A DNA stretch of 64,000 nt from Bacilli bacterium (GCA_051886655.1 JBJEYJ010000086.1:38-64037), one strand, 5' to 3'; positions 46,326-59,990 are shown, counted from the first letter of the stretch. Notes: a model not told the origin generated them from the sequence alone. A program made the numbers and translations.

Positions 46326-46336
46326 TAGATTATGTA

Positions 46337-46462: not shown

Positions 46463-46496
46463 CGAACAAATGTACGCTTTTTCGAACAAATGTTCG
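46463..46496. promoter_or_regulatory. two tandem LexA 'Cheo' boxes: CGAACAAATGTACG (one mismatch) and CGAACAAATGTTCG (perfect Gram-positive SOS box)
   Basis: Firmicutes LexA consensus is CGAAC-N4-GTTCG. Centres are 20 bp apart. Confidence 0.55.
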
Positions 46497-46603
46497 CATC
46501 CCAAAACTCTTGATACTCTAGCGTTTGATCGGATCGCCGCAATCCTTACAGCCTCAAGGCATTGCCGCTCTTGAAAAAAATAAAAATTTTTTTTAAAAAA
46601 TGC

Positions 46604-46632
46604 TTGACAAACAATACAAATGGTAGTATAAT
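46604..46632 (+). promoter_or_regulatory. early promoter cassette (TTGACA, 17 nt, TATAAT)
   Basis: Consensus, with UP-like A/T tracts. Confidence 0.6.
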
Positions 46633-46663
46633 AATTACAGAGTTAAGGAAAGAGGGTATAAAA

Positions 46664-47362
46664 ATGAAAGTTGATAAAAGAAAAAAATATTTAATGGTTT
46701 TAGATGTAGAAACTACAAACAATATTATGGAAAAAGGAGCTCCAAACGATGGTTTGGTTTATGATATAGGTTTTACAATTATTGATAAACAAGGAAACAT
46801 TTACGCAAAAAGAAGTTTTGCAATTAAAGAAATATTTGATTGGAAAGAACTTATGTCTACTGCTTATTATGCTAAAAAATTACCTATTTATTATGAAAGA
46901 CTTAAACAAGGAAAAATGGAAAAGATTACAATTTGGCAAGCAAGAAAAAGAATACACCAAGCAATAGAATACTTTGGAATAAAAGAAGTGTATGCCTACA
47001 ATGCAAATTTTGATTATACAACATTAAATAATACAGTTAGATATTTAAGTGGAAGTGCTTGTCGTTGGTTTTTTCCTTATGGAACACAAATTTGTGATAT
47101 TTGGCACATTGCTTGTCAAACATTATGTCTACAAAAAACTTTCCAATGGGAAAATGTAAGAAATGCAAACAATAATTTAATTACAAATGCAGAAAGAGTG
47201 TTTGGCTATTGTGAACAAACAGATTTTGAAGAAGAACACACAGGGCTAGCCGATGCAATAGTAGAAAGTCAAATTTTAGCAAGATGTTTTAAATCACATA
47301 AAAGCATTGATAAAAAAATAAATAGGGCTTGTTGGAGAATACCACAACAAGCCACTGCCTAA
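46664..47362 (+). CDS. DEDDh-family 3'-5' exonuclease (DnaQ / RNase T-like), about 232 aa
   Basis: Exo I LVLDVETT, Exo II YAYNANFDY and Exo III HTGLADA motifs. RBS AAGGAAAGAGGG. All 6 Trp are TGG. Confidence 0.75.
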   Translation: MKVDKRKKYLMVLDVETTNNIMEKGAPNDGLVYDIGFTIIDKQGNIYAKRSFAIKEIFDWKELMSTAYYAKKLPIYYERLKQGKMEKITIWQARKRIHQAIEYFGIKEVYAYNANFDYTTLNNTVRYLSGSACRWFFPYGTQICDIWHIACQTLCLQKTFQWENVRNANNNLITNAERVFGYCEQTDFEEEHTGLADAIVESQILARCFKSHKSIDKKINRACWRIPQQATA

Positions 47363-47392
47363 AAAAAAAATAAAAATTTTTTTAAAAAAGTA

Positions 47393-47421
47393 TTGACAAA
47401 TAATACAAATGGTAGTATAAT
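47393..47421 (+). promoter_or_regulatory. early promoter cassette (TTGACA, 17 nt, TATAAT)
   Basis: Consensus. Confidence 0.6.
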
Positions 47422-47454
47422 AATTATAGAAGTTAGGAAAGAGGAGGAAAACAA

Positions 47455-47619
47455 ATGAAAGAGTTAGTAAAAAATTTAATAGGTGGAATAATTTTAACAG
47501 GTTTAGTACTAGGGTTCTTCTATTTACTAGGAATAGTAGAAATGATAATAGAAAGACATTTTTGGTTAATGATACCACTAACAATTTATGTAATCTATTT
47601 AATATTAAAAGAAATTTAA
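47455..47619 (+). CDS. small membrane protein of about 54 aa
   Basis: GAGGAGG RBS. Two predicted TM segments. Not in the track because it is shorter than 60 aa. Confidence 0.45.
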   Translation: MKELVKNLIGGIILTGLVLGFFYLLGIVEMIIERHFWLMIPLTIYVIYLILKEI

Positions 47620-47628
47620 AAAAAAGTA

Positions 47629-47657
47629 TTGACAAATATTAAAAAATAGAATATAAT
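47629..47657 (+). promoter_or_regulatory. early promoter cassette
   Basis: TTGACA, 17 nt, TATAAT. Confidence 0.55.
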
Positions 47658-47684
47658 ATAATAAAGAAAGGGAAGGTGATAACA

Positions 47685-47915
47685 ATGATAACTTTTAAGT
47701 CAATAACAGTTTTAAAGTTAATCCAAGAAAAACTTTTTAATCAAACAGAGGATTTTGAAGAAGAATATTACTTTATTGTAAATGATATTTTCTTTCCTAT
47801 TCAAGAAATATTTGTTTTTGAAGGTGGGATAGAAGTAAAAAATACATCTTATGATATAGACATTGAAATAAAAGCAAATGAAAAAGACTTGATCTGGAAA
47901 AAAGAAGAAGAATAA
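47685..47915 (+). CDS. hypothetical protein of about 76 aa
   Basis: GGAAGGTG RBS then ATG. Confidence 0.5.
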   Translation: MITFKSITVLKLIQEKLFNQTEDFEEEYYFIVNDIFFPIQEIFVFEGGIEVKNTSYDIDIEIKANEKDLIWKKEEE

Positions 47916-47941
47916 AAAATAAAAATTTTTTCAAAAAAGTA

Positions 47942-47970
47942 TTGACAAACAAAAGAAAAAGTAGTATAAT
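47942..47970 (+). promoter_or_regulatory. early promoter cassette
   Basis: TTGACA, 17 nt, TATAAT, followed by a long structured leader. Confidence 0.55.
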
Positions 47971-48058
47971 AAAAGTACAATAAGGGTAGGGTAAAAAGTT
48001 GATAATAACCTACGGTAGCAACTCATAAATAAAATTTTTGAAAGGTTAGGTGGTAGTT

Positions 48059-48427
48059 ATGGCAAACAAAGTAACTAAAAAAGAAAGATTTATGGAGTTA
48101 TTAAACATTAGAGAGGTAGCAGAAAATGCGGAAATGGTAGAGTTCATTAATCACGAACTAGAACTATTAAATAAAAAAAGTGCAAAAAGTGGTATGACAG
48201 CAAATCAAAAAGTAAATGAAGGACTAAAAGAGGTTATTACAGAACATTTAAAACTAGCAGGAAGAGCAATGACAATTACAGAACTACAAAGCGAAATTAA
48301 AGAAATTGCAGAATTAAGTAATCAAAAAGTAAGTGCATTACTAACACAACTTGTAAATACTAATGTAATCATTAGAGAGAAAGACAAAAAGACAACATTG
48401 TTCAAATACAACGATGAACAAATATAG
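48059..48427 (+). CDS. paralog family A member 1: small protein with a C-terminal winged-helix-like region (regulator?)
   Basis: Shares ELELL.KK.AKSGMTANQKVNE and a C-terminal SNQK.SALL..LV.T...KDKK.T.F block with 50242..50607 (plus strand) and 55363..55719 (minus strand). Confidence 0.6.
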   Translation: MANKVTKKERFMELLNIREVAENAEMVEFINHELELLNKKSAKSGMTANQKVNEGLKEVITEHLKLAGRAMTITELQSEIKEIAELSNQKVSALLTQLVNTNVIIREKDKKTTLFKYNDEQI

Positions 48428-48556
48428 ATAGAGGGCGAAAGCCCTTTATTTTTATGTTAAGTGCAGAAACAGATGTTTGGTTTCCAGTATGCAACTGATT
48501 ATGTAAACCAAAATTTTGTTCGCCGGCGCGTCGTGGATTGTGACGCGCCGTTTGAC

Positions 48557-48570
48557 AGAACAGTTGTTCG
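48557..48570. promoter_or_regulatory. LexA Cheo box AGAACAGTTGTTCG (perfect GAAC-N4-GTTC core)
   Basis: Intergenic, next to a GTTTACATAAT motif. Confidence 0.5.
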
Positions 48571-48630
48571 GTTTACATAATTTTTTTTCCAATTTTTTCC
48601 AGTTTACATAATCTGTTGACTCCTAAAACT

Positions 48631-48642
48631 GAACATCTGTTC
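48631..48642. promoter_or_regulatory. LexA Cheo box GAACATCTGTTC (perfect core)
   Basis: Lies 70 bp upstream of an early promoter -35. Confidence 0.5.
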
Positions 48643-48710
48643 ATACTAAATCTCGCAGATCAGCTTGGGAGTAAGGATCGCCGCATTATAAAGAATTTTT
48701 TAAAAAAATG

Positions 48711-48739
48711 CTTGACAAACACGCTATAAAGTAGTATAA
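48711..48739 (+). promoter_or_regulatory. early promoter cassette
   Basis: TTGACA, 17 nt, TATAAT. Confidence 0.6.
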
Positions 48740-48758
48740 TAATTATAGTAAAGGAAAG

Positions 48759-49223
48759 GTGATACAAATGAACTTGATTAAAAAATTTTATGTTAAACAA
48801 TTCGTACATTCTATTGATAAAAATATTAAAGTTAAATTTGGAAAAAATTTACAATGCGACATAGAAAATCAAACAATTTATGTAACTAATAAAACTGATA
48901 AAATAGATATTCAAACTTTTAAAGAGTATGTAAGAGAATTGAATAGTAAATGTTTTTTTAATACTTTTATTTTAGGAATATTACACGAAATAGGACATAT
49001 TTACACTTATGATGAAAGAGATGAGGAAGAATATTTTAGAGATAACGAACTATTAACACTACTTTTTCAAGAGAAAAAAATTGATGCCGTAGATTTTAAT
49101 AAATTCTATCTAAGATTAGAAATGGAGAAAAAAGCAACTCAATGGGCTATTGATTTTTCAATGTTAAATAAAGATTTTTGTAAAAAATATCAAAAAAAAT
49201 TAGGCAAAGAAATTTATAAATAG
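48759..49223 (+). CDS. HExxH metallopeptidase-like protein (ImmA/IrrE/DUF955-like?), 154 aa
   Basis: GILHEIGHIYTYDERDEEE: an HEIGH zinc-binding motif in a protein of about 150 aa, the size of ImmA-type anti-repressor proteases. Confidence 0.5.
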   Translation: MIQMNLIKKFYVKQFVHSIDKNIKVKFGKNLQCDIENQTIYVTNKTDKIDIQTFKEYVRELNSKCFFNTFILGILHEIGHIYTYDERDEEEYFRDNELLTLLFQEKKIDAVDFNKFYLRLEMEKKATQWAIDFSMLNKDFCKKYQKKLGKEIYK

Positions 49224-49226
49224 GGG

Positions 49227-49255
49227 TTGACAAAAGCCCCTAACTATGTTATAAT
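49227..49255 (+). promoter_or_regulatory. early promoter cassette
   Basis: TTGACA, 17 nt, TATAAT. Confidence 0.55.
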
Positions 49256-49281
49256 AGTATTATAGAAAGGAAGATGTAAAA

Positions 49282-49500
49282 ATGAGAAAAGATATTTTTA
49301 AAAATGCTAATCAAGTAAGAGCAACAGCCGAAGACTATAATGCAAAATGTTGTAAAAGATATAAAGGACAAGGAAAAATATTAAGAAGATACGCAAGACA
49401 CAAATTAAATGAACATGATAAAGAAGAAATAAGACAGGTATTAGCATTTCAAAAAAATATAAATTTTTACAAAATTAAAAAGGAAAGGAATTGATAATTA
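49282..49500 (+). CDS. basic small protein of about 71 aa
   Basis: Track ORF. Ends TGA then TAA (TGATAA). Confidence 0.45.
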
Positions 49501-49838
49501 TGAAAAAAGAACCAATGCAAATTTTGTATATTTTAAGAAATGGAGAAACAAATCAGTATAAAATAGGAATTACAGATAATCTAAATAGAAGATTATCTCA
49601 ACTACAAACTGGTTGTCCAGAAGAATTACAGATAATTAAATTATGGAAACATTATCAAAGAAACATAGTCAAAAGATATGAAAGAGTGTTGCATAGATAT
49701 TTTACAAAATGTGGTTGTAGAATAAGACCAAATGGAGAATGGTTTAATTTAAAACAAGTTGATATAAATTATTTATGTAAACCAAATACAATAGCAGAAC
49801 AAAATGAGATAATAGAAAATTTATTAGAAATGATGTAA
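49500..49838 (+). CDS. GIY-YIG / T5orf172-type domain protein, about 112 aa
   Basis: ILYILRNGETNQYKIGITDNLNRRLSQ matches the Y..L....-YKIG.T.N...R pattern. Confidence 0.5.
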   Translation: MKKEPMQILYILRNGETNQYKIGITDNLNRRLSQLQTGCPEELQIIKLWKHYQRNIVKRYERVLHRYFTKCGCRIRPNGEWFNLKQVDINYLCKPNTIAEQNEIIENLLEMM

Positions 49839-49872
49839 AGTGCGGGCTTCCGCACTTTTTCTACATAACTCT

Positions 49873-49990
49873 AGAACAAATGTTTCCACGAACGATCGTT
49901 TGGAGCCCGTTTCGCAGGTTTACATAATAACTTAACATTTTTCATTATGAAAAATTATTTTCAGATCGAACATTTGTACTCCTAAAACTC
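49873..49990. promoter_or_regulatory. cluster of three one-mismatch Cheo-like boxes (AGAACAAATGTTTC, CGAACGATCGTTTG, CGAACATTTGTACT) interleaved with GTTTACATAAT motifs
   Basis: Intergenic region upstream of the double promoter at 50045 to 50164. Confidence 0.35.
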
Positions 49991-50044
49991 GTCGCAGTTT
50001 ACATAATGTATTGCAAATAAAATAAAAATTTTTTTTAAAAAGTA

Positions 50045-50073
50045 TTGACTTTTTATAATAATTATAGTATAAT
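50045..50073 (+). promoter_or_regulatory. promoter (TTGACT, 17 nt, TATAAT)
   Basis: First promoter of a tandem pair. Confidence 0.5.
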
Positions 50074-50135
50074 AATTATAGTCAAAAGGAAATAGAAAAT
50101 CTTAAAAATTAATTTTAAGAAATTTTAAAAAACTC

Positions 50136-50164
50136 TTGACAAACAAAACAAAAAATGTTATAAT
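50136..50164 (+). promoter_or_regulatory. promoter (TTGACA, 17 nt, TATAAT)
   Basis: Second promoter of the tandem pair. Its leader contains a GAAC..GTTC hairpin. Confidence 0.55.
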
Positions 50165-50241
50165 AATTATAACAAAGGAAGATAAAAAACCTTGAGAACT
50201 TCCTGTAAAGGTTCATAAAAATAAAAATAAAAAATTGAAAG

Positions 50242-50607
50242 GTGGAATGTATTATGGCAAACAAAAAAACAAAAAGAGAATTATTTGGAGAAATCAGAGA
50301 AATTGTAGTAGGAAATGAAGAACTTGTAAACTTCATAGACCACGAATTAGAACTATTAGACAAGAAACACGCAAAAAGTGGAATGACAGCAAATCAAAAA
50401 GTAAATGCTGAAATAGTTGACAAATTATACAGTGCATTAGTTGAAGTTGAAACAGCCCTAACAATAAATGAAATCCAAGAACAATTTGATTTTACCAAAG
50501 AATTAAGTAATCAAAAAATAAGTGCATTATTAAAGAAATTAGTTGATACTGGAAAAGTTGAAAGAATAAAAGACAAAAAAGTTACAAGATTTCAAGCAAT
50601 AGTATAG
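50242..50607 (+). CDS. paralog family A member 2, 121 aa
   Basis: See 48059..48427. C-terminus is SNQKISALLKKLVDTGKVERIKDKKVTRF. Confidence 0.6.
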   Translation: MECIMANKKTKRELFGEIREIVVGNEELVNFIDHELELLDKKHAKSGMTANQKVNAEIVDKLYSALVEVETALTINEIQEQFDFTKELSNQKISALLKKLVDTGKVERIKDKKVTRFQAIV

Positions 50608-50661
50608 AGTAAGGGGCAAATGCCCCTACTCAAAAAAAAATAAAATTTTTTCAAAATACTA

Positions 50662-50690
50662 TTGACAAATTTTCTCAATAGTAGTATAAT
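50662..50690 (+). promoter_or_regulatory. early promoter cassette
   Basis: TTGACA, 17 nt, TATAAT. Confidence 0.55.
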
Positions 50691-50714
50691 AATAATAGAA
50701 AAGGAGTTGATAGT

Positions 50715-51125
50715 ATGATAGTAAAAATTAAAAATAAGGAAGTAAAAATTCCAGAAGAAGAAATTAAAAAGAATATGAAAATACTTGACATAACAGAAGA
50801 AGAAGCAATACAAATGTATTTAGAAGATGAAGGTTATGAGGTTAATGAAGAAGTAGAAAAGTTGACTAAAAAGGCAAAAGAAAATAATATAAAAATAAGG
50901 GGCGACAGTGATAAACCTAGAGCCAAGCGAAATATAGAACGCAAAACAAATCCAGTTAAAGAAGAAGTTATACAAATATTAGCACAGACACTAGCAAATT
51001 ATGGAAACCTTAATATTCATAATGTAAAAGTGGAAAATATTGGAAAACTTATTACTTTTAATGTAGGAGAGCGTCAATTCAAACTAGATTTAATAGAAAA
51101 AAGACCTCCAAAAGCCTCAAAATAG
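50715..51125 (+). CDS. paralog family B member 1, 136 aa
   Basis: Shares LTKKAKEN...DKPRAKR...NIGKLI.F...KLDLI with 54038..54439 on the minus strand. Confidence 0.6.
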   Translation: MIVKIKNKEVKIPEEEIKKNMKILDITEEEAIQMYLEDEGYEVNEEVEKLTKKAKENNIKIRGDSDKPRAKRNIERKTNPVKEEVIQILAQTLANYGNLNIHNVKVENIGKLITFNVGERQFKLDLIEKRPPKASK

Positions 51126-51353
51126 GGCTTTTTACAAAAGAAAAAGGCTAAAAGGCTTGAAAAATCTTGTCTTTTGGTTGAAAATGGCGGAAATGAGCGA
51201 ATAATCGCTCATTTTTTCGCGTTTTAGGCGAACTTTTGTTTAAATTTACATAAAATAATGTAAATTTTTGTAAAAAATGGTTGAAAGTGTTGCGGCTGTA
51301 GGGATTTAGCAGGTTTACATAATTTGCCGGCTCGGCGTGGAGCGCCTTTGAGC

Positions 51354-51367
51354 CGAACACGCGTTCT
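51354..51367. promoter_or_regulatory. LexA Cheo box CGAACACGCGTTCT
   Basis: Perfect GAAC-N4-GTTC core in a long non-coding region. Confidence 0.45.
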
Positions 51368-52032
51368 AAAATACCTATATGCGATTTTTTCGTAGGTTTT
51401 GGGCTTTATGCTCTTTTTCTCTAGCTTCCTGAAACCTCTTAGGTTTACATAATAACTTTACAGGCGCGATTCCAGATTCTTTTAACCTACATCCGCGCAA
51501 TATGCAAAATTGCCATAGTTTCAGGCTTCTTTATGACTTGATTTTTTTAAAAATTTTTGATATAATACTAAAAAAACTTAAAATATTGCCGCATAAAACC
51601 AAAAATAAAGTTGACATTTTAAGCCAACTTTTTTCTTTAAAATCATTCTCATGCTTTCATATTTGCCCCATCTACTTTTAACTAAAATTTTAAACAAAAG
51701 CAAATGTATCTGCCTAATAAAAAATTTTACTTCCATCTCTATACTTTAACTAACTGGGGGCCGCGCTCTTTTTAAGGACAGACTTTCCATTATATCATCT
51801 TTATTATATTATATCAAATTTTTTATAAAATATCAACTTTAATAAAATTTGCCACAATTTTTTAAATTATTTTCCTTGATCCTTCCTATTTCACATGAGT
51901 GCAATAGTCAAGCAAAATGAGAAGCAAAATAATATCTCTAACTTTTACAAATTAAAAAAAGAAGAAAAAAATATTCTTTTCTTTTATTGCGGAGACGGAG
52001 ATACGAGGATCTGTTAACCCAGGTCGCCGCAT

Positions 52033-52061
52033 TTGCAAATTATAAAAAAATATGATATAAT
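52033..52061 (+). promoter_or_regulatory. promoter (TTGCAA, 17 nt, TGaTATAAT extended -10)
   Basis: Preceded by a GGTCGCCGCA element. Confidence 0.5.
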
Positions 52062-52087
52062 AAATATATAAATAGTAAGGAGGAAAA

Positions 52088-52474
52088 GTGAAAATAATGA
52101 AAAATATGAATGTCAAAGATATGTTAAAAGCAGGTGTATCTGCAAAAGACTTAAGAAATAAACTAGAACAAGAAATAGAAAAAGCAACAGCCGCAATAAA
52201 AGAAGAAGCTGAAGATAAAAAAGTTGGTTTAATGAGAAAAAGATTAGTTGATGCGGCAATTGATTATATGCAAGCTATGGACTGGTTAGAAGAAGGATTA
52301 AATGAAGAAGACAGGCAAGACTTAGTTGAAGTATTAAAAGATTTAGAAGATGAGCTTGGAACTTATGTAGATATTATAAAATTATTGATTAGAAAAGAAA
52401 CTAATAAAAATAAAAAGAAAGATAATGGTTCTACTGCTGAAGATATAATCAATAAATTTTTAGGTACACTATAA
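52088..52474 (+). CDS. helical hypothetical protein, 128 aa
   Basis: Track ORF. AAGGAGG RBS. Confidence 0.6.
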   Translation: MKIMKNMNVKDMLKAGVSAKDLRNKLEQEIEKATAAIKEEAEDKKVGLMRKRLVDAAIDYMQAMDWLEEGLNEEDRQDLVEVLKDLEDELGTYVDIIKLLIRKETNKNKKKDNGSTAEDIINKFLGTL

Positions 52475-52489: not shown

Positions 52490-52527
52490 ATAAAAAAAGA
52501 AGAGGTTTTATACCTCTTCTTTTTTGC
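52490..52527. terminator. bidirectional rho-independent terminator (GAAGAGGT-TTTA-TACCTCTTC flanked by A- and T-runs) between convergent units
   Basis: Seen directly. Confidence 0.6.
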
Positions 52528-52617: not shown

Positions 52618-52740
52618 GCCACCACAAATTCCACAAATGCCACATATCTACAAATCTACATATCTATATACTCGCATATCTACACTATATACTACATATC
52701 TACATATCTATATACATACATTATATCTCCATATACTTGC
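52618..52740. repeat. array of short direct repeats: CCACAAAT x3 followed by about six ATATCTA(C/T)A units
   Basis: Seen directly: ccacaaattccacaaatgccacatatctacaaatctacatatctatatactcgcatatctacactatatactacatatctacatatctatatacat... Confidence 0.75.
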
Positions 52741-52797: not shown

Positions 52798-53508
52798 TTA
52801 ATTTTTCACTTCAATTAACGCATTTCTTTCTACAAGAGTTCCTCTTACTACTTGACAACCAATCTTCTCCTGCAATTCCTTTAAAAATGTTAAAAAGTTC
52901 ATATCCGTCATATTTGTCATCTCTTCTAATACATCTCACGCCTCATCTTTTGTTATCTCTCCTGCCGCAACCATTCCCTTTACTAATATCTGCTTTTCAG
53001 TTGTATCTCCAAAATATTTAGTTTGTAAATTCTTTTTTATTTGCTCTTCCTCAGGAGTTAAAAAACTATATTCTCCAGTTTCTTTATCTCTTTTACATCA
53101 CAAATAAATACATTTACCTAATTTTCCTCCACTCATAAAAGGTTTTCCATATAATTCATTTCTACCTTCTCTTGTATATTTTACAATAGTATCAGGTTGT
53201 CTAGTTACCCCCTCTTTATTTAATAATTCACATATCTCATTTCCAACCCTTGTACAACTATCTAATCCATTTTCGCTTCAAACCTCATCAATTTTTTTAA
53301 CAACCATCTGCTTTGTTTTTGCTTGCTGCTTTTGATAAACAGGTTCATAAATTTCTGTAATAACAACTTTACCTTTTTCTTCGTAAAAATCAGCAAATAA
53401 TTTCAATTCCTCTAATTTTTTTTCTTTATTATTTCTAAAAGTTGCATAACTAATTCCAAATCATTCAGCAAGTTCTTTAGAAGATATTTTTCCAATTTGT
53501 AATTGCAC
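52798..53508 (-). CDS. HTH DNA-binding protein of about 236 aa containing four in-frame TGA codons (candidate late-gene regulator or replication-organiser)
   Basis: GAGAGGAGAG RBS then GTG start. N-terminal KISSKELAEWFGISYATFRNN HTH-like segment. TAA near 52798. Absent from the track because of the TGA codons. Confidence 0.5.
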
Positions 53509-53588
53509 TTTTTTATCTCTCCTCTCAATAATATATAAATTTTTTACTAATTAAATATTACAAAATTAACCAAATGTCATAAAAAATT

Positions 53589-53646
53589 TTGTAACATTTT
53601 TTTCCGCCCATAGAAATAATATTATGGGCGGAAAAAAATGTTACAA
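53589..53646. repeat. 58-bp near-perfect palindrome: 24-bp arms TTGTAACATTTTTTTCCGCCCATA and its reverse complement, separated by a 10-bp spacer
   Basis: Seen directly. Confidence 0.8.
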
Positions 53647-53860
53647 AATAATAAAAGTAATAGGCGGTTGGGGGAACCTCCATATCCGAGCTTCGCTCTC
53701 CATGGAGTCACCCAACCGATAGGTAGGTAAGAGTAATCCGTAAAAAGTATATTTAGTTTCGTTTTTTCGTTAGATAAAGATTTTTTTAAAAGTAGCTTTT
53801 TTTTATATGATGCGGCAATTCTTGCTCTATGGCCCGCCTAATCGAGTTCCCGCATAATAA
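53640..53860 (-). ncRNA. GC-rich structured non-coding island with a long imperfect hairpin (CGGTTGGG...CCCAACCG); candidate ncRNA
   Basis: No ORF. Local GC is much higher than background. Nested stems. Shares a GGAACTCG(A)TTAGG motif with 55160..55362. Confidence 0.3.
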
Positions 53861-53863: not shown

Positions 53864-54031
53864 GGACTAATTGTCCCTTATAATAACCTTATCAGATTTA
53901 AAGAAATTTCTTATAATCTTTTCAGCTTCGCTTTTATCTATTTCTATAATATATTCTCCACCGTCATAATATCCTGCATATTTATGGATATCTATTAAAT
54001 TTTTCGTTTCTTCTATTTGATTAAAATTATA
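53864..54031 (-). CDS. small protein of about 55 aa
   Basis: AAAGGAGGAAATAGGGG then TTG start. Translation MYNFNQIEETKNLIDIHKYAGYYDGGEYIIEIDKSEAEKIIRNFFKSDKVIIRDN. Confidence 0.35.
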
Positions 54032-54037
54032 CAACCC

Positions 54038-54439
54038 CTATTTCCTCCTTTGAATTAAATCTAATTTATATTTATTACCGTCACATTCAAATTCTATAAG
54101 TTTACCAATATTAGTTATTTTTAAATGTTCTACACCATCTAAATTAGTTAGCATTTGAGCAACTGCGGCAATTATTCTTTCTTTTGTTGGATTTTCCTTT
54201 CTAGTAACTTCTCTCTTTGCTCTTGGCTTATCTTCAGCTTTTGCTTCATGAATTGTTGCGGTAATCCTATTTTCTTTTGCTTTTTTAGTTAATCTTTCTT
54301 CTTGTTCATTTTTAATATAATCATTATCGGCTAACCATGTATCTATGGCTTCTTGCATTGATATTTCAAGAGTATCAACTAATCTATCTATTTCCTCATC
54401 TGGAATTTCAATTATTTTATTTTCAAATTTATATTTCAT
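54038..54439 (-). CDS. paralog family B member 2, 133 aa
   Basis: See 50715..51125. Driven by a TTGACT, 17 nt, TGaTATAAT promoter near 54470. Confidence 0.6.
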   Translation of the reverse strand: MKYKFENKIIEIPDEEIDRLVDTLEISMQEAIDTWLADNDYIKNEQEERLTKKAKENRITATIHEAKAEDKPRAKREVTRKENPTKERIIAAVAQMLTNLDGVEHLKITNIGKLIEFECDGNKYKLDLIQRRK

Positions 54440-54605
54440 AAATAACCACCCTTCCTTTTTATTATTTATATAATAATTATATCATATTTTTTTTAAAAAG
54501 TCAATAGACAGGTTAAACCTATACACCAAAAATTTTTAAGGAGCGGCAACCGATGGTATATAGATACATTACTCACGAATAAAAAAGCGACATACATGCC
54601 GCCAG

Positions 54606-54917
54606 CTATTTATTAAATAATACTGTATTATATATTGAAGTTAAATATTGTTTTCCATCTTTACTCTTGATCTTAATTTTACCATCGTCTAAACTATTCC
54701 AAGTATCAACGTCAACTTCTATATATTCACTTCCTATTGTTATATATGCTTTTGTATATAATGTATTTACATTTGTCATATCCATATTACTTGTCATAGA
54801 TGGCGGAACCACTATAATATATGCTATTCCTCCAATAAGTATAAAAACTACTAATGCTATTGCAATAATTCCAATTGCATCTAACACATCATAATACATT
54901 CTAATTAACCTCCTCAT
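54606..54917 (-). CDS. membrane protein, 103 aa
   Basis: TM segment IIAIALVVFILIGGIAYIIVV. Confidence 0.55.
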   Translation of the reverse strand: MRRLIRMYYDVLDAIGIIAIALVVFILIGGIAYIIVVPPSMTSNMDMTNVNTLYTKAYITIGSEYIEVDVDTWNSLDDGKIKIKSKDGKQYLTSIYNTVLFNK

Positions 54918-55104
54918 ACATAATCAATAAAGTTAAGTATATTCCAGTTTCAGTCTTCTTTTCTATAATATTATCTTCTATTGTTGTAACAATAGTATCT
55001 GTACTCATTTTTATATCTATAATCTTTTTATCTAGCATCCATTTATTGATAACATCTTTTGCTTTAACATCATTTGGTGCTATTGTAAAATATTCTATTT
55101 TCAT
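54901..55104 (-). CDS. hypothetical protein of about 67 aa; start at MKIEY...
   Basis: Track ORF 54901..55155, with an internal ATG preceded by AAAGAAAGGAATG. Confidence 0.45.
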   Translation of the reverse strand: MKIEYFTIAPNDVKAKDVINKWMLDKKIIDIKMSTDTIVTTIEDNIIEKKTETGIYLTLLIMYEEVN

Positions 55105-55159
55105 ATTTTCATTCCTTTCTTTAATAAATAAGAGATAGAATGATTCCCCGCTCATCCTA

Positions 55160-55362
55160 TCTCTACCTAAGTTTGTGCTACTTGGGAAGCTGTTCTTTAT
55201 TTATCCTCGCATCCCCTAACGAGTTCCTATATTTTACTAGCTGTAACACTAGGAGGCTTTTACTATCGGTTAGAGACCATACCTCAACGGTATTATTTAT
55301 ACTCGACTCAAGTGTCCGCAGACCTTAAGCCCCGAGTTAGAGTGCGGCAATCGCCGCATCTC
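55160..55362 (-). ncRNA. GC-rich structured 3' region between two genes (GCGGCGATTGCCGC hairpin and others, ending in an 8-bp-stem terminator-like hairpin); candidate ncRNA
   Basis: About 200 nt with no ORF. GC content far above background. Shares a motif with 53640..53860. Confidence 0.3.
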
Positions 55363-55719
55363 TTATTCACTCTCTTTTATAGAGAATAATGTAACCTTTT
55401 TGTCTTTTACTCTTACTACTCTATTAGTATCTACTAATTTCTTTAAAAGAGCAGACATTTTTTGATTTGAGAAATCAGCTATTGTTTCATCTTCAGCTTG
55501 GATTTCAGCAACAGTAGCAGGTTTTCCTAATCTTGCTAATGCTTCATATACAACTTCTACTAATCCTTCATTTTCTTTTTGTGTTTTTGTTTGAGCAAAT
55601 TTTCTATTTGCTAATCTTTCAATTTCTTTTTCGCAGAATTCTACTGCTCCTTGTTCTCCAGCCTCAACAGCTAAATCTCTTAAAACTCCTAAATAATCTT
55701 TTTTTGTCATTTTTTCCAT
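55363..55719 (-). CDS. paralog family A member 3, 118 aa
   Basis: C-terminus SNQKMSALLKKLVDTNRVVRVKDKKVTLF. Preceded by two tandem TTGATT, 17 nt, TATAAT promoters (55773..55801 and 55858..55886). Confidence 0.6.
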   Translation of the reverse strand: MEKMTKKDYLGVLRDLAVEAGEQGAVEFCEKEIERLANRKFAQTKTQKENEGLVEVVYEALARLGKPATVAEIQAEDETIADFSNQKMSALLKKLVDTNRVVRVKDKKVTLFSIKESE

Positions 55720-55857
55720 AATAAATCACCTCATTTAACCTTTCTTTATATTTTTATTTTTTCTATACTTATATTATATAATAATTTTTTTATATAATCA
55801 ATTATTATTTCTTTAAGGTGCATAGAAACCTTTTTTTCTTTTTCTTTTGTTAATATA

Positions 55858-55886
55858 ATTATATAATATTTTTTTTATATAATCAA
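55858..55886 (-). promoter_or_regulatory. module-2 promoter (TTGATT, 17 nt, TATAAT on the minus strand)
   Basis: One copy of a roughly 45-bp cassette repeated at least 11 times. Confidence 0.5.
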
Positions 55887-55899
55887 CTTAGTGGTACTT

Positions 55900-56376
55900 A
55901 TGTTATTTTACAAGTCCTATATGCCCCACTAAGTATTATGTAGGCGACTTGGTATTCCTTTCGCACTTTAAGGTATGCTGCCAGGGTTACTCAGGCTACC
56001 TTTGATATATATTAGCCTATCAAAAAAATAGTTACCAACTACAACCACGAGGAGGTTTATATCGTATGTAGTTATCTATAGATGGAAGCTTTGCTCACTG
56101 GTTTACCAACCTTTATATATAAGAGCGGCGGATGAGGAAATAATAATTTAATTTTTAGAAAGGAATTTTTACTATAACAGACCGCCGCATAATTAGGAAG
56201 GGGGGCAAAGAGTGTTTTCACCAAATCTATAAACTATCACCAAATTTCTTCGGTGAGATGAGACTCGAACTCATCTTCTCTCTTACCAATAGGATTTTAT
56301 AAGCTCTTGCCTTTTGTTCCTATCTTCAACGATTATCTCTAAACCGTCAACATTTATATTTTTCTTTTCTTTTTCT
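55900..56376 (-). ncRNA. non-coding transcript candidate of about 470 nt, driven by the module-2 promoter at 56383..56411. GC-rich hairpins and a tRNA T-arm-like element (GATGAGTTCGAGTCTCATC).
   Basis: No ORF longer than about 12 codons on the minus strand. Consensus promoter at its 5' end. Multiple stems (GCGGCGG..CCGCCGC, CTTAGTGG..CCACTAAG). Confidence 0.35.
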
Positions 56377-56382
56377 ATATAT

Positions 56383-56411
56383 ATTATATAATAATTTTTA
56401 AAAATTATCAA
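56383..56411 (-). promoter_or_regulatory. module-2 promoter (TTGATA, 17 nt, TATAAT)
   Basis: Seen directly. Confidence 0.5.
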
Positions 56412-56575
56412 TTAAATCGGCGGGAGGAGGCTTTTCACCTTACCACTCTGGGAATTATGGATTTCACAACCTTGTTTAAGCTTGATCAGCTCTAGGAGTT
56501 GGTCCTCCAAGTGTTCCATTGATTCACTTCATTTATTATCTTCACACCTATATACTTTGGCTATCCCGCTAATAT

Positions 56576-56947
56576 TTAATCCATATCTATACCTCTATAA
56601 TAATGTATTATATCACAAGAATAATCATCTCCGCTTTCACCAAATACTTTTCTTTCTTCAATATCTGATAGCTCTTCTCCTAATCTTACAAAACTATATG
56701 GTTTACCATTCTCTTGTATCTCTATTAAATAATTTTCTATATATTGCACATCTTCATTATCTTGATACCATTTAACCCAATCCCAGTATAAAATAACTAC
56801 ATTATCACTAGGATTTCTAACTTCACCATAATCTATTAAATCTATAACATCTTGCCTATTATTTATTTTTGCTCTCTCAACTAATTCCTCATAATCACTT
56901 TTTTTCATTGCTATTGCAACTTCTGATCTATATCCCATAACAATCAC
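56576..56947 (-). CDS. hypothetical protein, 123 aa
   Basis: Track ORF. Promoter at 56966..56994. Confidence 0.55.
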   Translation of the reverse strand: MIVMGYRSEVAIAMKKSDYEELVERAKINNRQDVIDLIDYGEVRNPSDNVVILYWDWVKWYQDNEDVQYIENYLIEIQENGKPYSFVRLGEELSDIEERKVFGESGDDYSCDIIHYYRGIDMD

Positions 56948-56994
56948 TTTCCTTTCTATACTTATATTATATAATATTTTTTAATAATTATCAA

Positions 56995-57201
56995 TTATCT
57001 TTTTTGTACTATTTCAAATTTATCTTCACTTTTAATAATTTCTGCATTCTCATAGTCTTCAAGTACTCTTCTTTGCATTTCATCAATAGCTCCAATTCCT
57101 TCTATAATTTCACCTGCAATTCTATCAATTACTTTCATATACATACCTTCTTTCTTTTCTTTTTCTATATATATTATATAATAATTTTTAATTATTATCA
57201 A
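56995..57201 (-). CDS. hypothetical protein, 68 aa
   Basis: Track ORF. Confidence 0.4.
   Translation of the reverse strand: MIIIKNYYIIYIEKEKKEGMYMKVIDRIAGEIIEGIGAIDEMQRRVLEDYENAEIIKSEDKFEIVQKR
57173..57201 (-). promoter_or_regulatory. module-2 promoter (TTGATA, 17 nt, TATAAT)
   Basis: Overlaps the 3' end of the upstream gene. Confidence 0.5.
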
Positions 57202-57551
57202 TAAAGAAAATAATCTTCATCATTTATAGTATAAGTATAGTTTCTTATTTTTAGTTTTTTGGCTATTGCGGCAACCGCCTTATTTAGATAAAATTTTCTT
57301 TCTTTTTCATTTTTAAATCTAGAATCGCTTTCTATGCCTAAATATAATAATAGTTCTTTACCATAGTCTGGATAATAGCATGTAAATCCATGATTTCTTA
57401 ATCTTAAATATCCTACTTGTTCATCATCTAAAAAAACATCATATTGCTCTGGACATGCATAACTAGTTAATTTCAATAAAAAAATACTTTTATTCTTTTT
57501 TCTCATCTTTATTTCCTTTCTTTGTAAAAAATACAGTATGATAATCTTCAT
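57198..57551 (-). CDS. hypothetical protein, 117 aa; ends TGA then TAA
   Basis: Track ORF. Confidence 0.5.
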   Translation of the reverse strand: MKIIILYFLQRKEIKMRKKNKSIFLLKLTSYACPEQYDVFLDDEQVGYLRLRNHGFTCYYPDYGKELLLYLGIESDSRFKNEKERKFYLNKAVAAIAKKLKIRNYTYTINDEDYFLY

Positions 57552-57735
57552 TAGAATAATAATATATCAATCCATAATCAAATTGAACTTTGTGTTTTAT
57601 GGTATCTATATTAACTAATTTATGTCCTCTAAACCAATATTCATTTTCTTTATAAAAATCTTTAACATCTTTGTAATTCTTTAATTGCTTTAGCACTCTA
57701 TATAAACTTATTCTTTCCATAAAACACACCTCCAA
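57490..57735 (-). CDS. hypothetical protein, 81 aa
   Basis: Track ORF. Overlaps the start of 57198..57551 in another frame. Confidence 0.45.
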   Translation of the reverse strand: MEVCFMERISLYRVLKQLKNYKDVKDFYKENEYWFRGHKLVNIDTIKHKVQFDYGLIYYYSNEDYHTVFFTKKGNKDEKKE

Positions 57736-58095
57736 TTAAACTAATTTATTAAAACAATTCAAATAATAATCTTGTTTTGGATCATACCTTTCTGGATCAT
57801 TATGATATTTACTCCAAAAATCAGAACGAACTATAAAATCATTTACTTCTTCATAAAATTCACTAACTAAAAACTGTGAGCTTCCCCATATCCATCCTTT
57901 TGAAAATAAAGTGTCTCTATTAGGTTCTAATCTATCTTTTAATTCATAAAGATAATAGAAACAACCTTCATAATCTCCTCTTTGTCTAGCAACTTGTTTA
58001 ATCCAGAATCTATCCCCAAAAACATCTTTTTTTAACTCTCTATTTAATCGTTTTGCTATTCTGTTTATTTTTTTATCAACTTTATTTTTAGCCAT
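57736..58095 (-). CDS. hypothetical protein, 119 aa
   Basis: Track ORF. AAGGAGTG RBS. Promoter at 58129..58157. Confidence 0.55.
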   Translation of the reverse strand: MAKNKVDKKINRIAKRLNRELKKDVFGDRFWIKQVARQRGDYEGCFYYLYELKDRLEPNRDTLFSKGWIWGSSQFLVSEFYEEVNDFIVRSDFWSKYHNDPERYDPKQDYYLNCFNKLV

Positions 58096-58165
58096 AGTTA
58101 AACACTCCTTTCTTTATTTTCTATATATATTATATAATAAATTTTATAAATTATCAATAAATATA

Positions 58166-58456
58166 TTATTCAAGAAACAAATATCCTATTTCTAATGGGA
58201 TAATTTTTAAATGATATGCATAACATTCATTTATATTTTTAGGGGCTATAAAAGATTCAACTACAGCCCCTATTTCTTTTATTACATCAAAAGTGTTATC
58301 TTTTTCATATGGAAATATAGTAGCTTTAAGAGCGGCAACCGCATCTTCATAAGTATTATATGGACTTATAAAAGATTGTCTTATAATTTCATTTGAATTT
58401 TCTAAAAACATATAACATTCTGCTTTTATACCAAATACATTAAGCATTCTCATCAT
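58166..58456 (-). CDS. hypothetical protein, 96 aa
   Basis: Track ORF. Overlaps the upstream gene by 17 nt. Confidence 0.5.
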   Translation of the reverse strand: MMRMLNVFGIKAECYMFLENSNEIIRQSFISPYNTYEDAVAALKATIFPYEKDNTFDVIKEIGAVVESFIAPKNINECYAYHLKIIPLEIGYLFLE

Positions 58457-59990
58457 CCTCCATATTTGTAATTATATTCCAATTACATAAATAATTTGTT
58501 GCATATGGAGAAATTGTTGTAGTAATTCCTTCTGTTAATGCTGACTCCACTTGTTTATCTACTATTTTTTTAATCTCAGTATTAAGATCTTCAGTAGTAA
58601 AATGTGTAACTAAGCTATCATTATTTTCTGATTCTTCTTCCATTTCCTCTTTATATCTAGGACAATCCTTACAATGGTCATAATTACTACACATAACTCC
58701 ATCATCTATATAACGAAAACTTGGATTATCACATTCTTCATTATCTAAATCACATTGAGGATGTTCATCTTGCCAATATCCACAATCAGAGCAATTACAT
58801 TCACAACATGAAGTACATCCTTCTCTACAATAGTCATCAGCTAAATCACACCAATATCTCATATTAAAATGTTCTGCTACAAACCCTTCTCCATTATAAT
58901 CTGCTTCTGCTTCATCATCTGGATATGTTGGTGGTAAAAAGTCTCCACATCCGCAAGGACATAGTATTTCTTCATTAAATACTGTAAATTCTGTTTCATT
59001 TTTTGTATCTTTTAAAGTCCAAATTCTTTCATCAGAATACTCAGAATATCCATATCCATGTTCTCTATAACAATTGCAATCCCAATTCTTTTTCCATTTA
59101 TTTTCTTTATTATGACATTTTGCTACTACTTCTTCAACTATTTCTCTTAATTCTTTTTCAAAATCTTCATCATAATCTTTGCCAGGATATATACAGTTGA
59201 AATGTATTGATGTCATATTTGGAGATAAAGCAATCCATTGACGCATTCTTTTATATCTTATATTTTTAAATTTATAAGTATCATATAAATCAAATTTTCC
59301 TTCATTATTCCAAACATAAGTAATTAAGCTAGCATTATCTAAAACTGCGGCAAGGCATCCATCTGCATGAGAGTCATCTCTATTTAATTCTAGTCTATAA
59401 CAAGAGGTCCAATCATATGGATTTTCTGAAGCTAACATCATATCAACTGGATCGATAGAAATAGTGTAATTAGCTTTTACCTTTTGATTTTCAAAAATCT
59501 TTCCTATTTCTGTTACTAACTCATCTGGTGCATTTAAACAAGATTTAAAAAAATGTGTAATTGAACTTCCATCTAATCTATATTGTGGAAATAGATCTTT
59601 TATAGCGTCTCTTACTTCATATCCAATTTTGTATGCTTCTATTTTATTATTTATTTGTCTTGTGAAACCTTTTAACCAAAGTGCAAAAATTGGAAATTTT
59701 TTAGAAATATCATTTATTTCATTTTCAATATCTTGTCTTTGTCTATTATATTCAAAAGCAACATCTAATCTAGTTTTATTACCAAGCATTTTATAAAAAT
59801 TATATTTATTTGTAGCCCAAGTAATTAAATAACTTTTTATTACTGCATCTGGAATTTTAGAAATATTTAATCCAGAAAATTGAGCTATACATTTTGTAAA
59901 ATCTGGAATATTAACTTCCTTTAACATTGATATATATTTTTCTGATTCCGTTCCTTCCATATTATCTATTAAATCACAAGTTTTTAACAT
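58440..59990 (-). CDS. large hypothetical protein, 516 aa, with a Cys-rich (about 25 Cys) acidic C-terminal region
   Basis: Uninterrupted ORF. CPCGCGD...CREGCTSCCECNCSDCGYW...CDNPS...CKDCPRY cluster. Promoter at 60039..60067. Confidence 0.6.
   Translation of the reverse strand: MLKTCDLIDNMEGTESEKYISMLKEVNIPDFTKCIAQFSGLNISKIPDAVIKSYLITWATNKYNFYKMLGNKTRLDVAFEYNRQRQDIENEINDISKKFPIFALWLKGFTRQINNKIEAYKIGYEVRDAIKDLFPQYRLDGSSITHFFKSCLNAPDELVTEIGKIFENQKVKANYTISIDPVDMMLASENPYDWTSCYRLELNRDDSHADGCLAAVLDNASLITYVWNNEGKFDLYDTYKFKNIRYKRMRQWIALSPNMTSIHFNCIYPGKDYDEDFEKELREIVEEVVAKCHNKENKWKKNWDCNCYREHGYGYSEYSDERIWTLKDTKNETEFTVFNEEILCPCGCGDFLPPTYPDDEAEADYNGEGFVAEHFNMRYWCDLADDYCREGCTSCCECNCSDCGYWQDEHPQCDLDNEECDNPSFRYIDDGVMCSNYDHCKDCPRYKEEMEEESENNDSLVTHFTTEDLNTEIKKIVDKQVESALTEGITTTISPYATNYLCNWNIITNMEDDENA

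What the first reader, a model, noticed from the sequence alone, without database searches (positions are those of the whole stretch)
52798..53508. An HTH regulator gene at the boundary of the early region itself needs TGA read-through (four TGAs): a possible translational checkpoint for late expression
This is the only recoded gene outside the structural block. It has an N-terminal HTH (KISSKELAEWFGISYATF), a GTG start and a strong RBS. It sits convergent to the early operon, just past the bidirectional terminator. If it encodes a late activator or replication organiser, its synthesis would depend on suppressor activity, coupling late transcription to recoding.
Basis: inference. Interest (0 to 1): 0.55.

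Follow-up and report, generated by a model that had tools for sequence, protein, structure and literature searches.

The report
Recoded DNA-binding gene outside late block
A conserved phage gene for a probable DNA-binding protein, sitting alone between the early genes and another non-structural block, writes all four of its tryptophans with the stop codon TGA, so it can probably be translated only after the phage switches the genetic code; the same gene has been recoded repeatedly in related phages.

Summary
Window 52798-53508 (-) is an intact 236-codon gene with a GTG start, a GAGAGGAGAG ribosome-binding site, a TAA stop and four in-frame TGAs. All four TGAs sit on invariant or near-invariant Trp columns of a family of more than 230 protein clusters. 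It is the only one of 35 non-late genes in the window with an internal TGA: 4 TGA/0 TGG, against 0/56 for the other 34 (Fisher p=2e-6). The late block has 95 TGA/33 TGG.

Comparison with relatives adds weight. The family gained TGA at Trp codons at least 5 times, and other lineages filled the gene with in-frame TAG, while flanking early genes stayed in standard code. It therefore belongs to the code-switch-dependent class of genes.

The function is not established. No Pfam, PHROG, NCBIfam or PDB match is significant. A confident AlphaFold model (pLDDT 92) shows an N-terminal winged-helix-like domain plus two further domains. The gene is an insulated single-gene unit that lacks both clear promoter classes of the window. 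Nothing links it to the late promoter, so the "late activator checkpoint" remains conjecture.

In passing: in the TAG-recoded relatives, TAG aligns with glutamate, not glutamine, in three independent protein families.

The parts
52798..53508 (-). Gene for a 236-aa conserved protein (GTG start, TAA stop). It has three predicted domains, an N-terminal winged-helix/HTH-like domain, and conserved Cys85, Cys133, Cys138 and Cys218.
   Evidence: Translation; 234 homologous clusters; alignments A1 and A2; AlphaFold model of the 78%-identical homologue P0001, pLDDT 92, pTM 0.79.
53461..53463 (-). In-frame TGA, codon 16 (Trp in the ELAEWFG helix). This is the position most often recoded in relatives.
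   Evidence: TGA in 12 of 41 aligned homologues, at least 5 changes on the tree.
53278..53280 (-). In-frame TGA, codon 77 (invariant Trp).
53098..53100 (-). In-frame TGA, codon 137 (invariant Trp in the GxCxYxWCK motif).
52936..52938 (-). In-frame TGA, codon 191 (Trp in the EAW motif; invariant in A1, at least 90% conserved in A2).
53517..53526 (-). Shine-Dalgarno GAGAGGAGAG, 8 nt upstream of the GTG.
53527..53585 (-). Presumed own promoter region. It contains neither of the two clear promoter classes of the window. Relatives conserve TTTTGGACAAA and TATATA(A/T) elements here.
53586..53649 (-). 27-bp perfect hairpin followed by a U-run on the - strand. It is the intrinsic terminator that insulates the gene from the upstream operon, and it is conserved in relatives with covarying outer arms.
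   Evidence: I1; -37.7 kcal/mol, z -11.2; GTAACA/TGTTAC, GTACTA/TAGTAC, GTCATA/TATGAC, GTTAAC/GTTAAC.
52620..52740 (.). Iteron-like repeat array in the 273-nt gap after the stop codon. It holds five exact CATATCTAY copies (52643-52711) inside a 44-nt tandem duplication. It is a candidate binding-site array; its role is unknown.
   Evidence: 14 matches in the window against 2.5 expected, 5 of them clustered here.
52493..52525 (.). Bidirectional intrinsic terminator shared with the convergent early operon.
   Evidence: (I14).

Best explanation
The gene encodes a conserved three-domain protein that is probably a sequence-specific DNA-binding protein. It belongs to a large family of low-GC gut and rumen phages (large siphovirus-type phages of Bacillota) that has no described function. 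SHOWN: the gene is intact and TGA stands for Trp. It is a stand-alone transcription unit, with a conserved terminator upstream and a bidirectional terminator downstream. Its Trp codon usage (4/4 TGA) matches the late block and is the opposite of all 34 other non-late genes. The same family has been recoded again and again in relatives, by TGA at Trp and by TAG in other lineages, while adjacent early genes stay in standard code. INFERRED: the phage infects a standard-code host and switches TGA from stop to Trp during infection. The suppressor machinery is encoded outside this window. Until the switch, ribosomes stop at codon 16 and make only a 15-residue peptide. After it, the full protein accumulates together with virion and lysis proteins. 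The TGAs thus act as a translational lock that keeps this protein out of the early phase whatever its transcription. MOST LIKELY ROLE (weakest step): a late-phase regulator that binds phage DNA. I favour shut-off or remodelling of the non-late regions over activation of late transcription. Packaging or replication-terminus functions remain open.
For: Gene and code. Partition of Trp codons: (target 4/0; non-late 0/56; late 95/33; p=2e-6). The three non-late genes that end in TGA each have a TAA 0-1 codons later, as expected if TGA is first a stop and later a sense codon. Close relatives use TGG at all four sites, and L001 even terminates the gene with TGA, so the ancestral state was standard code. 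Recurrent recoding: 13 of 42 aligned homologues carry TGA at Trp sites, with at least 5 changes on a neighbour-joining tree; 19 carry 2 or more in-frame TAG (18 are real; L020's two lie past the gene's 3' end). Flanking conserved genes have no homology-supported in-frame stops, and the other recoded genes nearby are lysis-type enzymes. Insulated unit. No early-class or middle-class promoter. DNA-binding character: AlphaFold order strand-helix-helix-helix-strand-strand at residues 6-53. The best partial fold matches are winged-helix, MerR, excisionase or TraN-type DNA binders. There are faint but repeated HTH hits: Xre-like-HTH in 14 and Phage_CI_repr in 8 of 121 members; PHROG repressor in 5 and excisionase in 2. 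Standard-code hosts are plausible: the nearest cultured terminase relatives infect Enterococcus, Geobacillus and Alicyclobacillus, and sister lineages recode TAG instead of TGA. The general model is that of Borges et al. (bioRxiv 10.1101/2021.08.26.457843).
Against: No suppressor tRNA, release factor or TrpRS is present in the 64-kb window, even with relaxed ARAGORN settings, and none was found in 38 related loci. The code switch is therefore inferred. The host is unknown. Homologues are binned with low-GC 'Bacilli' and 'Anaeroplasmatales' MAGs, so a host that natively reads TGA as Trp is not formally excluded. Timing of expression is not measured. No family, fold or binding-site evidence fixes the function. 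All profile hits are below threshold and all whole-chain fold matches are insignificant. The adjacent repeat motifs differ between relatives: CATATCTAY here, ATTATGTAAAC arrays in L013 and L014.
Confidence: 0.6

Rival explanations
1. The protein is the activator of late transcription (or a replication organiser), so late gene expression is made conditional on suppressor activity: a translational checkpoint upstream of the late genes.
For: The gene is recoded, HTH-like and monocistronic, and it lies at a regulatory junction. The most frequently recoded site is codon 16, which gives the tightest block. A DNA-binding protein gated by the code switch could form an AND gate.
Against: There is no homology to ArpU/RinA, Mor, DnaD or sigma families. 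The late block is headed by its own sigma-like gene (phrog_5767, E 6e-51) driven by a perfect TTGACA-17-TAAAAT host-type promoter. No motif linked to the target (CATATCTAY, or the TGTAACA arms) occurs near 42.6 kb. A gene recoded as heavily as the virion and lysis genes looks co-expressed with them rather than ahead of them.
Confidence: 0.15
2. The protein is a late-acting DNA-handling factor rather than a transcription regulator. It could be a packaging-site recognition (small-terminase-like) protein. It could instead be a replication-terminus-binding protein acting on the repeat array next to its gene, at the point where the two transcription and replication directions converge.
For: There is an Xis/MerR-type winged helix as in lambda gpNu1 (own knowledge). 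Terminase_5 and GP3_package give faint hits in 2 members each. Repeat arrays lie directly downstream of the gene here and in relatives. The gene sits at the convergent strand-switch and GC-skew turning point near 52.5 kb. Late coding fits a packaging function.
Against: The large terminase lies 12.5 kb away (38538-40271) with another candidate partner gene directly upstream of it. The repeat motif is not conserved between relatives. GC skew here simply follows gene orientation. No significant terminase or terminator-protein homology was found.
Confidence: 0.15
3. There is no gating. The host itself decodes TGA as Trp (code 4), and the TGA/TGG split between gene classes reflects mutation bias, gene age or horizontal origin of the early genes.
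For: No suppressor tRNA is in the window. GC content is very low, about 27%. Some homologue contigs are binned with Mollicutes-like MAGs.
Against: The partition is absolute: 0 of 56 Trp codons are TGA in 34 non-late genes, against 74% in late genes. TGA is used as a terminator, with TAA backup, in three non-late genes and in relative L001. Sister phages of the same family recode TAG instead. The nearest cultured relatives infect standard-code Bacillota. Borges et al. report detectable suppressor tRNAs in only 35% of code-4 phage genomes.
Confidence: 0.08
4. The gene is a decaying pseudogene and the TGAs are inactivating mutations.
For: Under table 11 the ORF is broken into pieces.
Against: All four stops fall exactly on conserved Trp columns and nowhere else. 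Every invariant residue of the family is kept. The same pattern recurs in many relatives.
Confidence: 0.01

Closest known systems
Stop-codon-recoded late, structural and lysis genes of gut phages (Agate, crAss-like, Jade and others; Borges et al., bioRxiv 10.1101/2021.08.26.457843)
   Same: TGA is reassigned to Trp. Early genes stay in standard code and virion and lysis genes are recoded. The genome has low GC and few TGA terminators. Close relatives use different codes. The proposed role is to prevent premature translation.
   Different: The recoded gene here is neither structural nor lytic. It is a putative DNA-binding protein in its own insulated unit among standard-code genes. It is not among the three families those authors found preferentially recoded in Agate phages. 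No suppressor tRNA is visible in the window.
Recoded group I intron homing endonuclease inside an early gene of Agate phages (Borges et al.)
   Same: It is a precedent for a heavily TGA-recoded non-structural gene embedded in a standard-code region, read as delaying its protein until late.
   Different: That gene is a mobile-element nuclease. This one is a conserved single-copy core gene of the phage group with no nuclease or intron features.
Excisionase/MerR-type winged-helix DNA-binding domains (Pfam HTH_17; PHROG excisionase and repressor families; Enterococcus TraN, RacA)
   Same: The N-terminal domain (residues 6-53) has the strand-helix-helix-helix-strand-strand order. Its best partial structural matches and faint profile hits are to this class.
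   Different: All matches are below significance. The protein has about 180 further residues in two more domains and four conserved cysteines with no counterpart in those families.
Phage Phass-1 group, Enterococcus phages EF1 and H1, Geobacillus virus E3 (large Bacillota siphoviruses)
   Same: The large terminase is 44-47% identical. Phass-1 is stop-codon-recoded in virion genes (PMC10607447).
   Different: A tblastn search finds no homologue of the target protein in any of 50,697 phage records or 72,556 plasmids. Phass-1 recodes TAG, which its authors read as Gln.

Membership tests
Code-switch-dependent (TGA to Trp) gene class of alternatively coded phages | In-frame TGA at positions that are Trp in unrecoded homologues | tested here: met
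   4 of 4 TGAs fall on Trp columns that are invariant, or for W16 (and W191 in the 121-sequence alignment) at least 90% conserved.
Code-switch-dependent (TGA to Trp) gene class of alternatively coded phages | The same genome keeps another set of genes free of in-frame TGA (standard-code compatible) | tested here: met
   34 non-late genes have 0 internal TGA and 56 TGG; late genes have 95 TGA and 33 TGG.
Code-switch-dependent (TGA to Trp) gene class of alternatively coded phages | Phage-encoded code-change machinery (tRNA-Sup UCA, RF1, TrpRS) | tested here: inconclusive
   There is no tRNA in the 64-kb window with default or relaxed ARAGORN, and no Rfam tRNA hit. The window is only part of a genome likely larger than 64 kb (relatives are 70-150 kb).
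Code-switch-dependent (TGA to Trp) gene class of alternatively coded phages | The host uses the standard code | not testable with these tools
   Only indirect evidence: terminase relatives infect standard-code Bacillota, sister lineages recode TAG, and MAG binning is ambiguous.
Code-switch-dependent (TGA to Trp) gene class of alternatively coded phages | The protein appears only late in infection | not testable with these tools
   This needs time-resolved proteomics or Ribo-seq.
   These families do not appear among the reported hits (E up to 10 for the protein alone; the 25 most-shared families at E up to 0.1 across 121 members) in Pfam, nor in PHROGs or NCBIfam.
Excisionase/MerR-type winged HTH (HTH_17) | Profile match above the gathering threshold | tested here: not met
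   HTH_17 best E 0.0068 in 3 of 121 members; HTH_DeoR E 0.078 (13.2 bits against a cutoff of 21).
Excisionase/MerR-type winged HTH (HTH_17) | Winged-helix topology of the domain | tested here: inconclusive
Small terminase subunit | Gene adjacent to the large terminase, plus a family profile match | tested here: not met
   The large terminase is at 38538-40271, 12.5 kb away. Terminase_5 and GP3_package hits appear in only 2 of 121 members, at E above 0.03.

The most novel reading that the evidence does not exclude
This uncharacterised protein family is the dedicated effector of the code switch. It would be a DNA-binding master regulator whose synthesis is deliberately locked behind reassigned stop codons: TGA=Trp in some lineages, and TAG in others, where TAG appears to mean Glu. 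The change of genetic code itself, not a transcription cascade, would then trigger the early-to-late transition (late activation and/or early shut-off) across a whole group of large Bacillota phages.
Probability: 0.15. Interest if true: 0.75.

Novelty: new member of a known kind. Interest (0 to 1): 0.5.

Why it matters
Stop-codon recoding in phages is thought to delay translation of lysis and virion genes, but no regulatory protein has been shown to be under that lock. This gene gives a concrete, testable candidate. It is a conserved, confidently folded, probably DNA-binding protein that evolution has recoded repeatedly, under two different reassignments, while its neighbours stayed standard. 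Replacing TGA with TGG in this one gene would test whether the code switch is used as a timing device for regulation. The comparative data also expose a probable TAG=Glu reassignment. I found no report of it for phages, and public protein sets mistranslate those TAG codons as Gln.

Tried and rejected
Pfam, PHROGs and NCBIfam, run on the protein and (Pfam, PHROGs) on all 121 aligned members, gave nothing significant.

A profile search of PDB sequences gave only chance hits at E 0.56.

Foldseek of the AlphaFold model had no match at E of 0.001 or below against PDB. Against BFVD it found only two uncharacterised viral proteins.

The 78%-identical homologue P0001 was modelled instead.

A tblastn search against 50,697 phage records and 72,556 plasmids found no match.

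Looking for a suppressor tRNA with ARAGORN (default, relaxed, with introns), with Rfam, and with ARAGORN in 38 related loci found none. The relaxed hits were intron artefacts.

I searched for the target's possible binding motifs near the late promoter. CATATCTAY and the TGTAACA arms are absent there.

A 12-mer shared by the target and one late-gene upstream region (AATTAGTAAAAA) is not enriched: 10 matches against 7.2 expected.

AACAAATGTT is only marginally enriched: 29 matches against 19.7 expected.

My first all-ORF count of residues aligned to stop codons was dominated by the target family and by non-coding frames. I replaced it with per-column tests on curated families.

Full report
THE OBSERVATION. 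The reverse strand of 52798-53508 is one open frame of 236 sense codons. It starts at a GTG, with GAGAGGAGAG 8 nt upstream, and ends at TAA. It is interrupted only by four TGAs, at codons 16, 77, 137 and 191, and it has no TGG. A search of 5.8 billion proteins returned 234 relatives, nearly all full length (about 236-250 aa) and 50-78% identical. All are metagenomic and unnamed. In alignments of 21 and 121 sequences the four TGAs fall on W16 (at least 90% conserved) and on W77 and W137 (invariant in both alignments). W191 is invariant among 21 sequences and at least 90% conserved among 121. The GTG aligns with the homologues' ATG, and every invariant residue of the family is kept. The gene is therefore intact, and TGA means Trp.

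THE WINDOW. GC content is about 27%. A minus-strand block from 1 to 42573 holds the virion and lysis genes. These include the large terminase (38538-40271), the portal (36452-38050), a GH25-type endolysin-like gene (read from its sequence, not searched) and two giant tail proteins. A sigma-like gene (41473-42573, phrog_5767, E 6e-51) heads the block. A plus-strand block from 42752 to 52474 holds small early genes: a nucleotidyltransferase, a deoxyribonucleotidase, an exonuclease and a T5orf172-type nuclease. A second minus-strand block from 53867 to 62957 holds other non-structural genes, including a Ro/TROVE-like RNA-binding protein.

Trp codon usage splits cleanly between these classes. The 29 late genes have 95 TGA and 33 TGG. 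The 34 non-late genes have 0 internal TGA and 56 TGG. The target has 4 TGA and 0 TGG (Fisher p=2e-6 against non-late genes; 4/4 is unremarkable at the late frequency). Three non-late genes end in TGA, each with a TAA zero or one codon later.

The pattern matches that described for alternatively coded gut phages, in which early genes are compatible with the host's standard code and late genes need a code switch (Borges et al.). The large terminase is 44-47% identical to those of Enterococcus phages H1 and EF1, Geobacillus virus E3 and the TAG-recoded Phass-1. No tRNA or other code-change gene is in the window.

RELATIVES. I fetched 59 related loci and read the codons at the four Trp columns in those whose sequence covers them.

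- The closest relatives (L001, L013 and L014, 71-73% identical) use TGG at all four Trp columns. L001 even ends the gene with TGA.
- L016 has 4 of 4 TGA. L045 and L053 have 3. L015, L020, L032, L034 and L038 have 2. L049, a partial sequence covering only the last two Trp columns, has TGA at W191. L007/L017/L019, L033, L036, L040 and L042 have TGA only at W16.
- On a neighbour-joining tree the TGA-at-Trp state changed at least 5 times.
- Eighteen further loci carry 2-8 in-frame TAGs in the same gene.
- In loci with 10 kb of flank, conserved neighbouring early genes have no homology-supported in-frame stops. The only other recoded genes nearby are lysis-type enzymes: a GH114 hydrolase and a CW_7 + metallo-beta-lactamase protein.

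The family is therefore a recurrent and selective target of recoding under two different reassignments. This is the strongest argument that its protein belongs to the post-switch phase.

ANATOMY OF THE UNIT. A 27-bp perfect hairpin at 53586-53649 (-37.7 kcal/mol, z -11) lies upstream and is followed by a U-run on the gene's strand. It recurs in five relatives with covarying outer arms. It is the terminator of the upstream operon.

The 59 nt between the hairpin and the ribosome-binding site contain neither of the window's two sharply defined promoter classes. The first class is the perfect host-type TTGACA-N17/18-TATAAT. It has ten copies on the + strand at 44666-50662, one before the sigma-like gene at 42639-42667 (-), and one more inside the late block at 26918 (-). 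The second is the TTATATAATATA element, with eight copies on the - strand at 55770-62993.

Downstream, 273 nt separate the stop codon from the bidirectional terminator at 52493-52525. This gap holds five exact CATATCTAY repeats inside a 44-nt duplication. Relatives L013, L014 and L001 have arrays of a different motif, ATTATGTAAAC, at the same place. In the window, all 12 exact copies of that motif lie in the early operon (44.6-51.5 kb; 9 of them in intergenic regions).

FUNCTION. No library gives a significant match, and the family is absent from PHROGs. AlphaFold on the 120-sequence alignment, with P0001 as first row, gives pLDDT 92 and pTM 0.79. It predicts three domains:

- residues 6-53: strand-helix-helix-helix-strand-strand;
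- residues 62-149: three helices plus a hairpin;
- residues 152-228: four helices plus a strand.

Whole-chain Foldseek matches are insignificant, but the list is dominated by winged-helix, MerR, excisionase and TraN-type DNA binders. Faint HTH hits recur across members: Xre-like-HTH in 14, CI-repressor HTH in 8, PHROG repressor in 5 and excisionase in 2. Four cysteines (85, 133, 138, 218) are invariant or nearly so. I conclude that it is probably a DNA-binding protein. Its target and role are unknown.

INTERPRETATION. The best-supported reading is a late-translated DNA-binding protein whose synthesis is locked by reassigned stop codons. The first lock is at codon 16.

The late block has its own sigma-like gene with a perfect host-type promoter. 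No motif linked to the target occurs at 42.6 kb. The gene is recoded as heavily as the genes it would have to precede.

A repressor or shut-off role, a packaging role and a terminus-binding role are all open. A natively code-4 host is unlikely for three reasons: the absolute codon partition, the use of TGA as a terminator here and in relatives, and the TAG-recoding sister lineages.

AN UNEXPECTED SIDE RESULT. In the TAG-recoded relatives, TAG does not align with Gln. Three families were tested.

- Target family: of the 31 TAG columns scored, 17 have Glu as the majority residue (Lys 6, Asp 2, Arg 2, Gln 1). These include the near-invariant E34, E154 and E184. A per-column likelihood puts Glu ahead of Lys by 59 nats and ahead of Gln by 92 nats. 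The TGA control returns Trp.
- CW_7/metallo-beta-lactamase protein (L052, L055): across 13 TAG columns, Glu is best, Asp is 7 nats behind and Gln more than 29 nats behind.
- GH114 hydrolase (L055:9233-9988): 7 of 8 TAG sites lie in Glu-dominated columns, two of them 42/42 and 41/41 Glu. Glu is best and Gln is 39 nats behind.

The public proteins of this clade show Q exactly at TAG codons because the gene caller applied code 15. Literature searches found TAG=Gln assumed throughout for phages and no report of TAG=Glu. From my own knowledge, the only catalogued TAG=Glu code is the peritrich ciliate nuclear code. One TAG sits on an invariant Tyr column and is unexplained. I rate TAG=Glu in this clade at about 0.7-0.8. 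It needs peptide evidence and the identity of the tRNA.

VERDICT. The finding is a new member of a known phenomenon, code-switch-gated phage genes, and it has an unusually strong comparative signal and unknown function. Interest is moderate (0.5). The side result on TAG deserves its own follow-up.

Noticed in passing
Related loci L022-L031, L037, L044, L046, L047, L050-L052, L054 (target homologue); L052:3209-4954(-), L055:10001-11743 and L055:9233-9988: In the TAG-recoded relatives, in-frame TAG aligns with glutamate, not glutamine, in three independent protein families. In the target family 17 of 31 TAG columns are Glu-majority. In GH114, 7 of 8 sites are Glu columns, two of them invariant. 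In the CW_7/metallo-beta-lactamase protein Glu is the best fit. Likelihoods favour Glu over Gln by 92, 39 and more than 29 nats. This is a probable TAG=Glu reassignment. I found no report of it for phages.
   Followed up: partly
Proteins P0121-P0138, P0226-P0255; L055:10001-11743: Public protein records of this clade carry Q at exactly the TAG codons (8 of 8 in P0125). The gene caller applied code 15, so these Q residues are annotation artefacts and are probably wrong.
   Followed up: yes
window 41473-42573 (-); TGA at 41596-41598; promoter 42639-42667 (-): The sigma-like gene heading the late block has a perfect host-type promoter (TTGACA-17-TAAAAT). Its single TGA, at codon 326, lies just before a C-terminal CxxC...CxxC zinc-ribbon tail of 40 residues. 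Before the code switch a truncated protein would be made, and after it the full one.
   Followed up: partly
window 44666-50662 (+) and 55770-62993 (-): There are two sharply separated promoter classes. Ten perfect TTGACA-N17/18-TATAAT promoters lie in the plus-strand early operon. Eight copies of TTATATAATATA, with no -35 element, lie before genes of the minus-strand block at 55.7-63 kb.
   Followed up: partly
window 56003-56072 (-): An HDV-like ribozyme matches Rfam RF02682 (HDV-F-prausnitzii) at 38.8 bits (gathering score 44), E 3e-5. Both helices keep their pairing through changes relative to the consensus, and the core (ACCUC.UCGUGGU, GGCUAA) is intact. HDV-like 'theta' ribozymes are reported adjacent to tRNAs in recoded gut phages (PMC10879173), but no tRNA is detectable upstream here.
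   Followed up: partly
window 56250-56278 (-): The sequence GAAGATGAGTTCGAGTCTCATCTCACCGA looks like a tRNA T-arm plus a 3' acceptor strand, but it has no matching 5' half. It could be a tRNA remnant, an attachment-site core or a non-canonical tRNA.
   Followed up: no
window 46329-46446, 48498-48612, 49918-50007, 51313-51453, 44608-44618: The early operon carries a repeated intergenic motif, ATTATGTAAAC/GTTTACATAAT. At 46384-46446 and 48498-48581 the two orientations bracket a GC-rich hairpin (GGCGCG...CGCGCC followed by GTTTGACAG). All 12 exact copies of the 11-mer lie within 44.6-51.5 kb (24 matches with up to 1 mismatch against 5 expected). The same motif forms 13-nt-spaced arrays next to the target homologue in L013 and L014.
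   Followed up: partly
window 45036-45044, 49492-49497, 57195-57200: The only three non-late genes that end in TGA each have an in-frame TAA zero or one codon later. This is as expected if TGA later becomes a sense codon.
   Followed up: partly
window 55363-55719 and 54038-54439 (-); 50254-50607 and 50715-51125 (+); 48050-48427 (+): Paralogous gene pairs flank the target in inverted orientation. Each pair is a winged-helix-like protein of about 120 aa followed by a protein of about 135 aa. The same arrangement (families 1 and 3) recurs around the homologue in L001 and L042, with partial versions in L007, L019, L006 and L014.
   Followed up: partly
L055:3610-4287 (-): A 225-aa protein whose N-terminus resembles the target family by eye (no alignment was run), for example ...DLAxQLF...KKKYLEYLKxF.... 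It also carries 4 in-frame TAGs.
   Followed up: no
window 53663-53718: A GC-rich stem-loop (GGTTGGG...CCCAACC enclosing CTCCAT...ATGGAG) lies between the upstream gene and the terminator hairpin. It folds at -29.9 kcal/mol, z -2.3. L015 and L016 have GC-rich sequence at the same place.
   Followed up: partly
L007/L017:23-2586: In a relative that has TGA at W16, a tRNA array (Met, Asn, Ile, Ser) and an ARAGORN tmRNA call lie about 5 kb upstream of the target homologue. No suppressor tRNA is among them.
   Followed up: no
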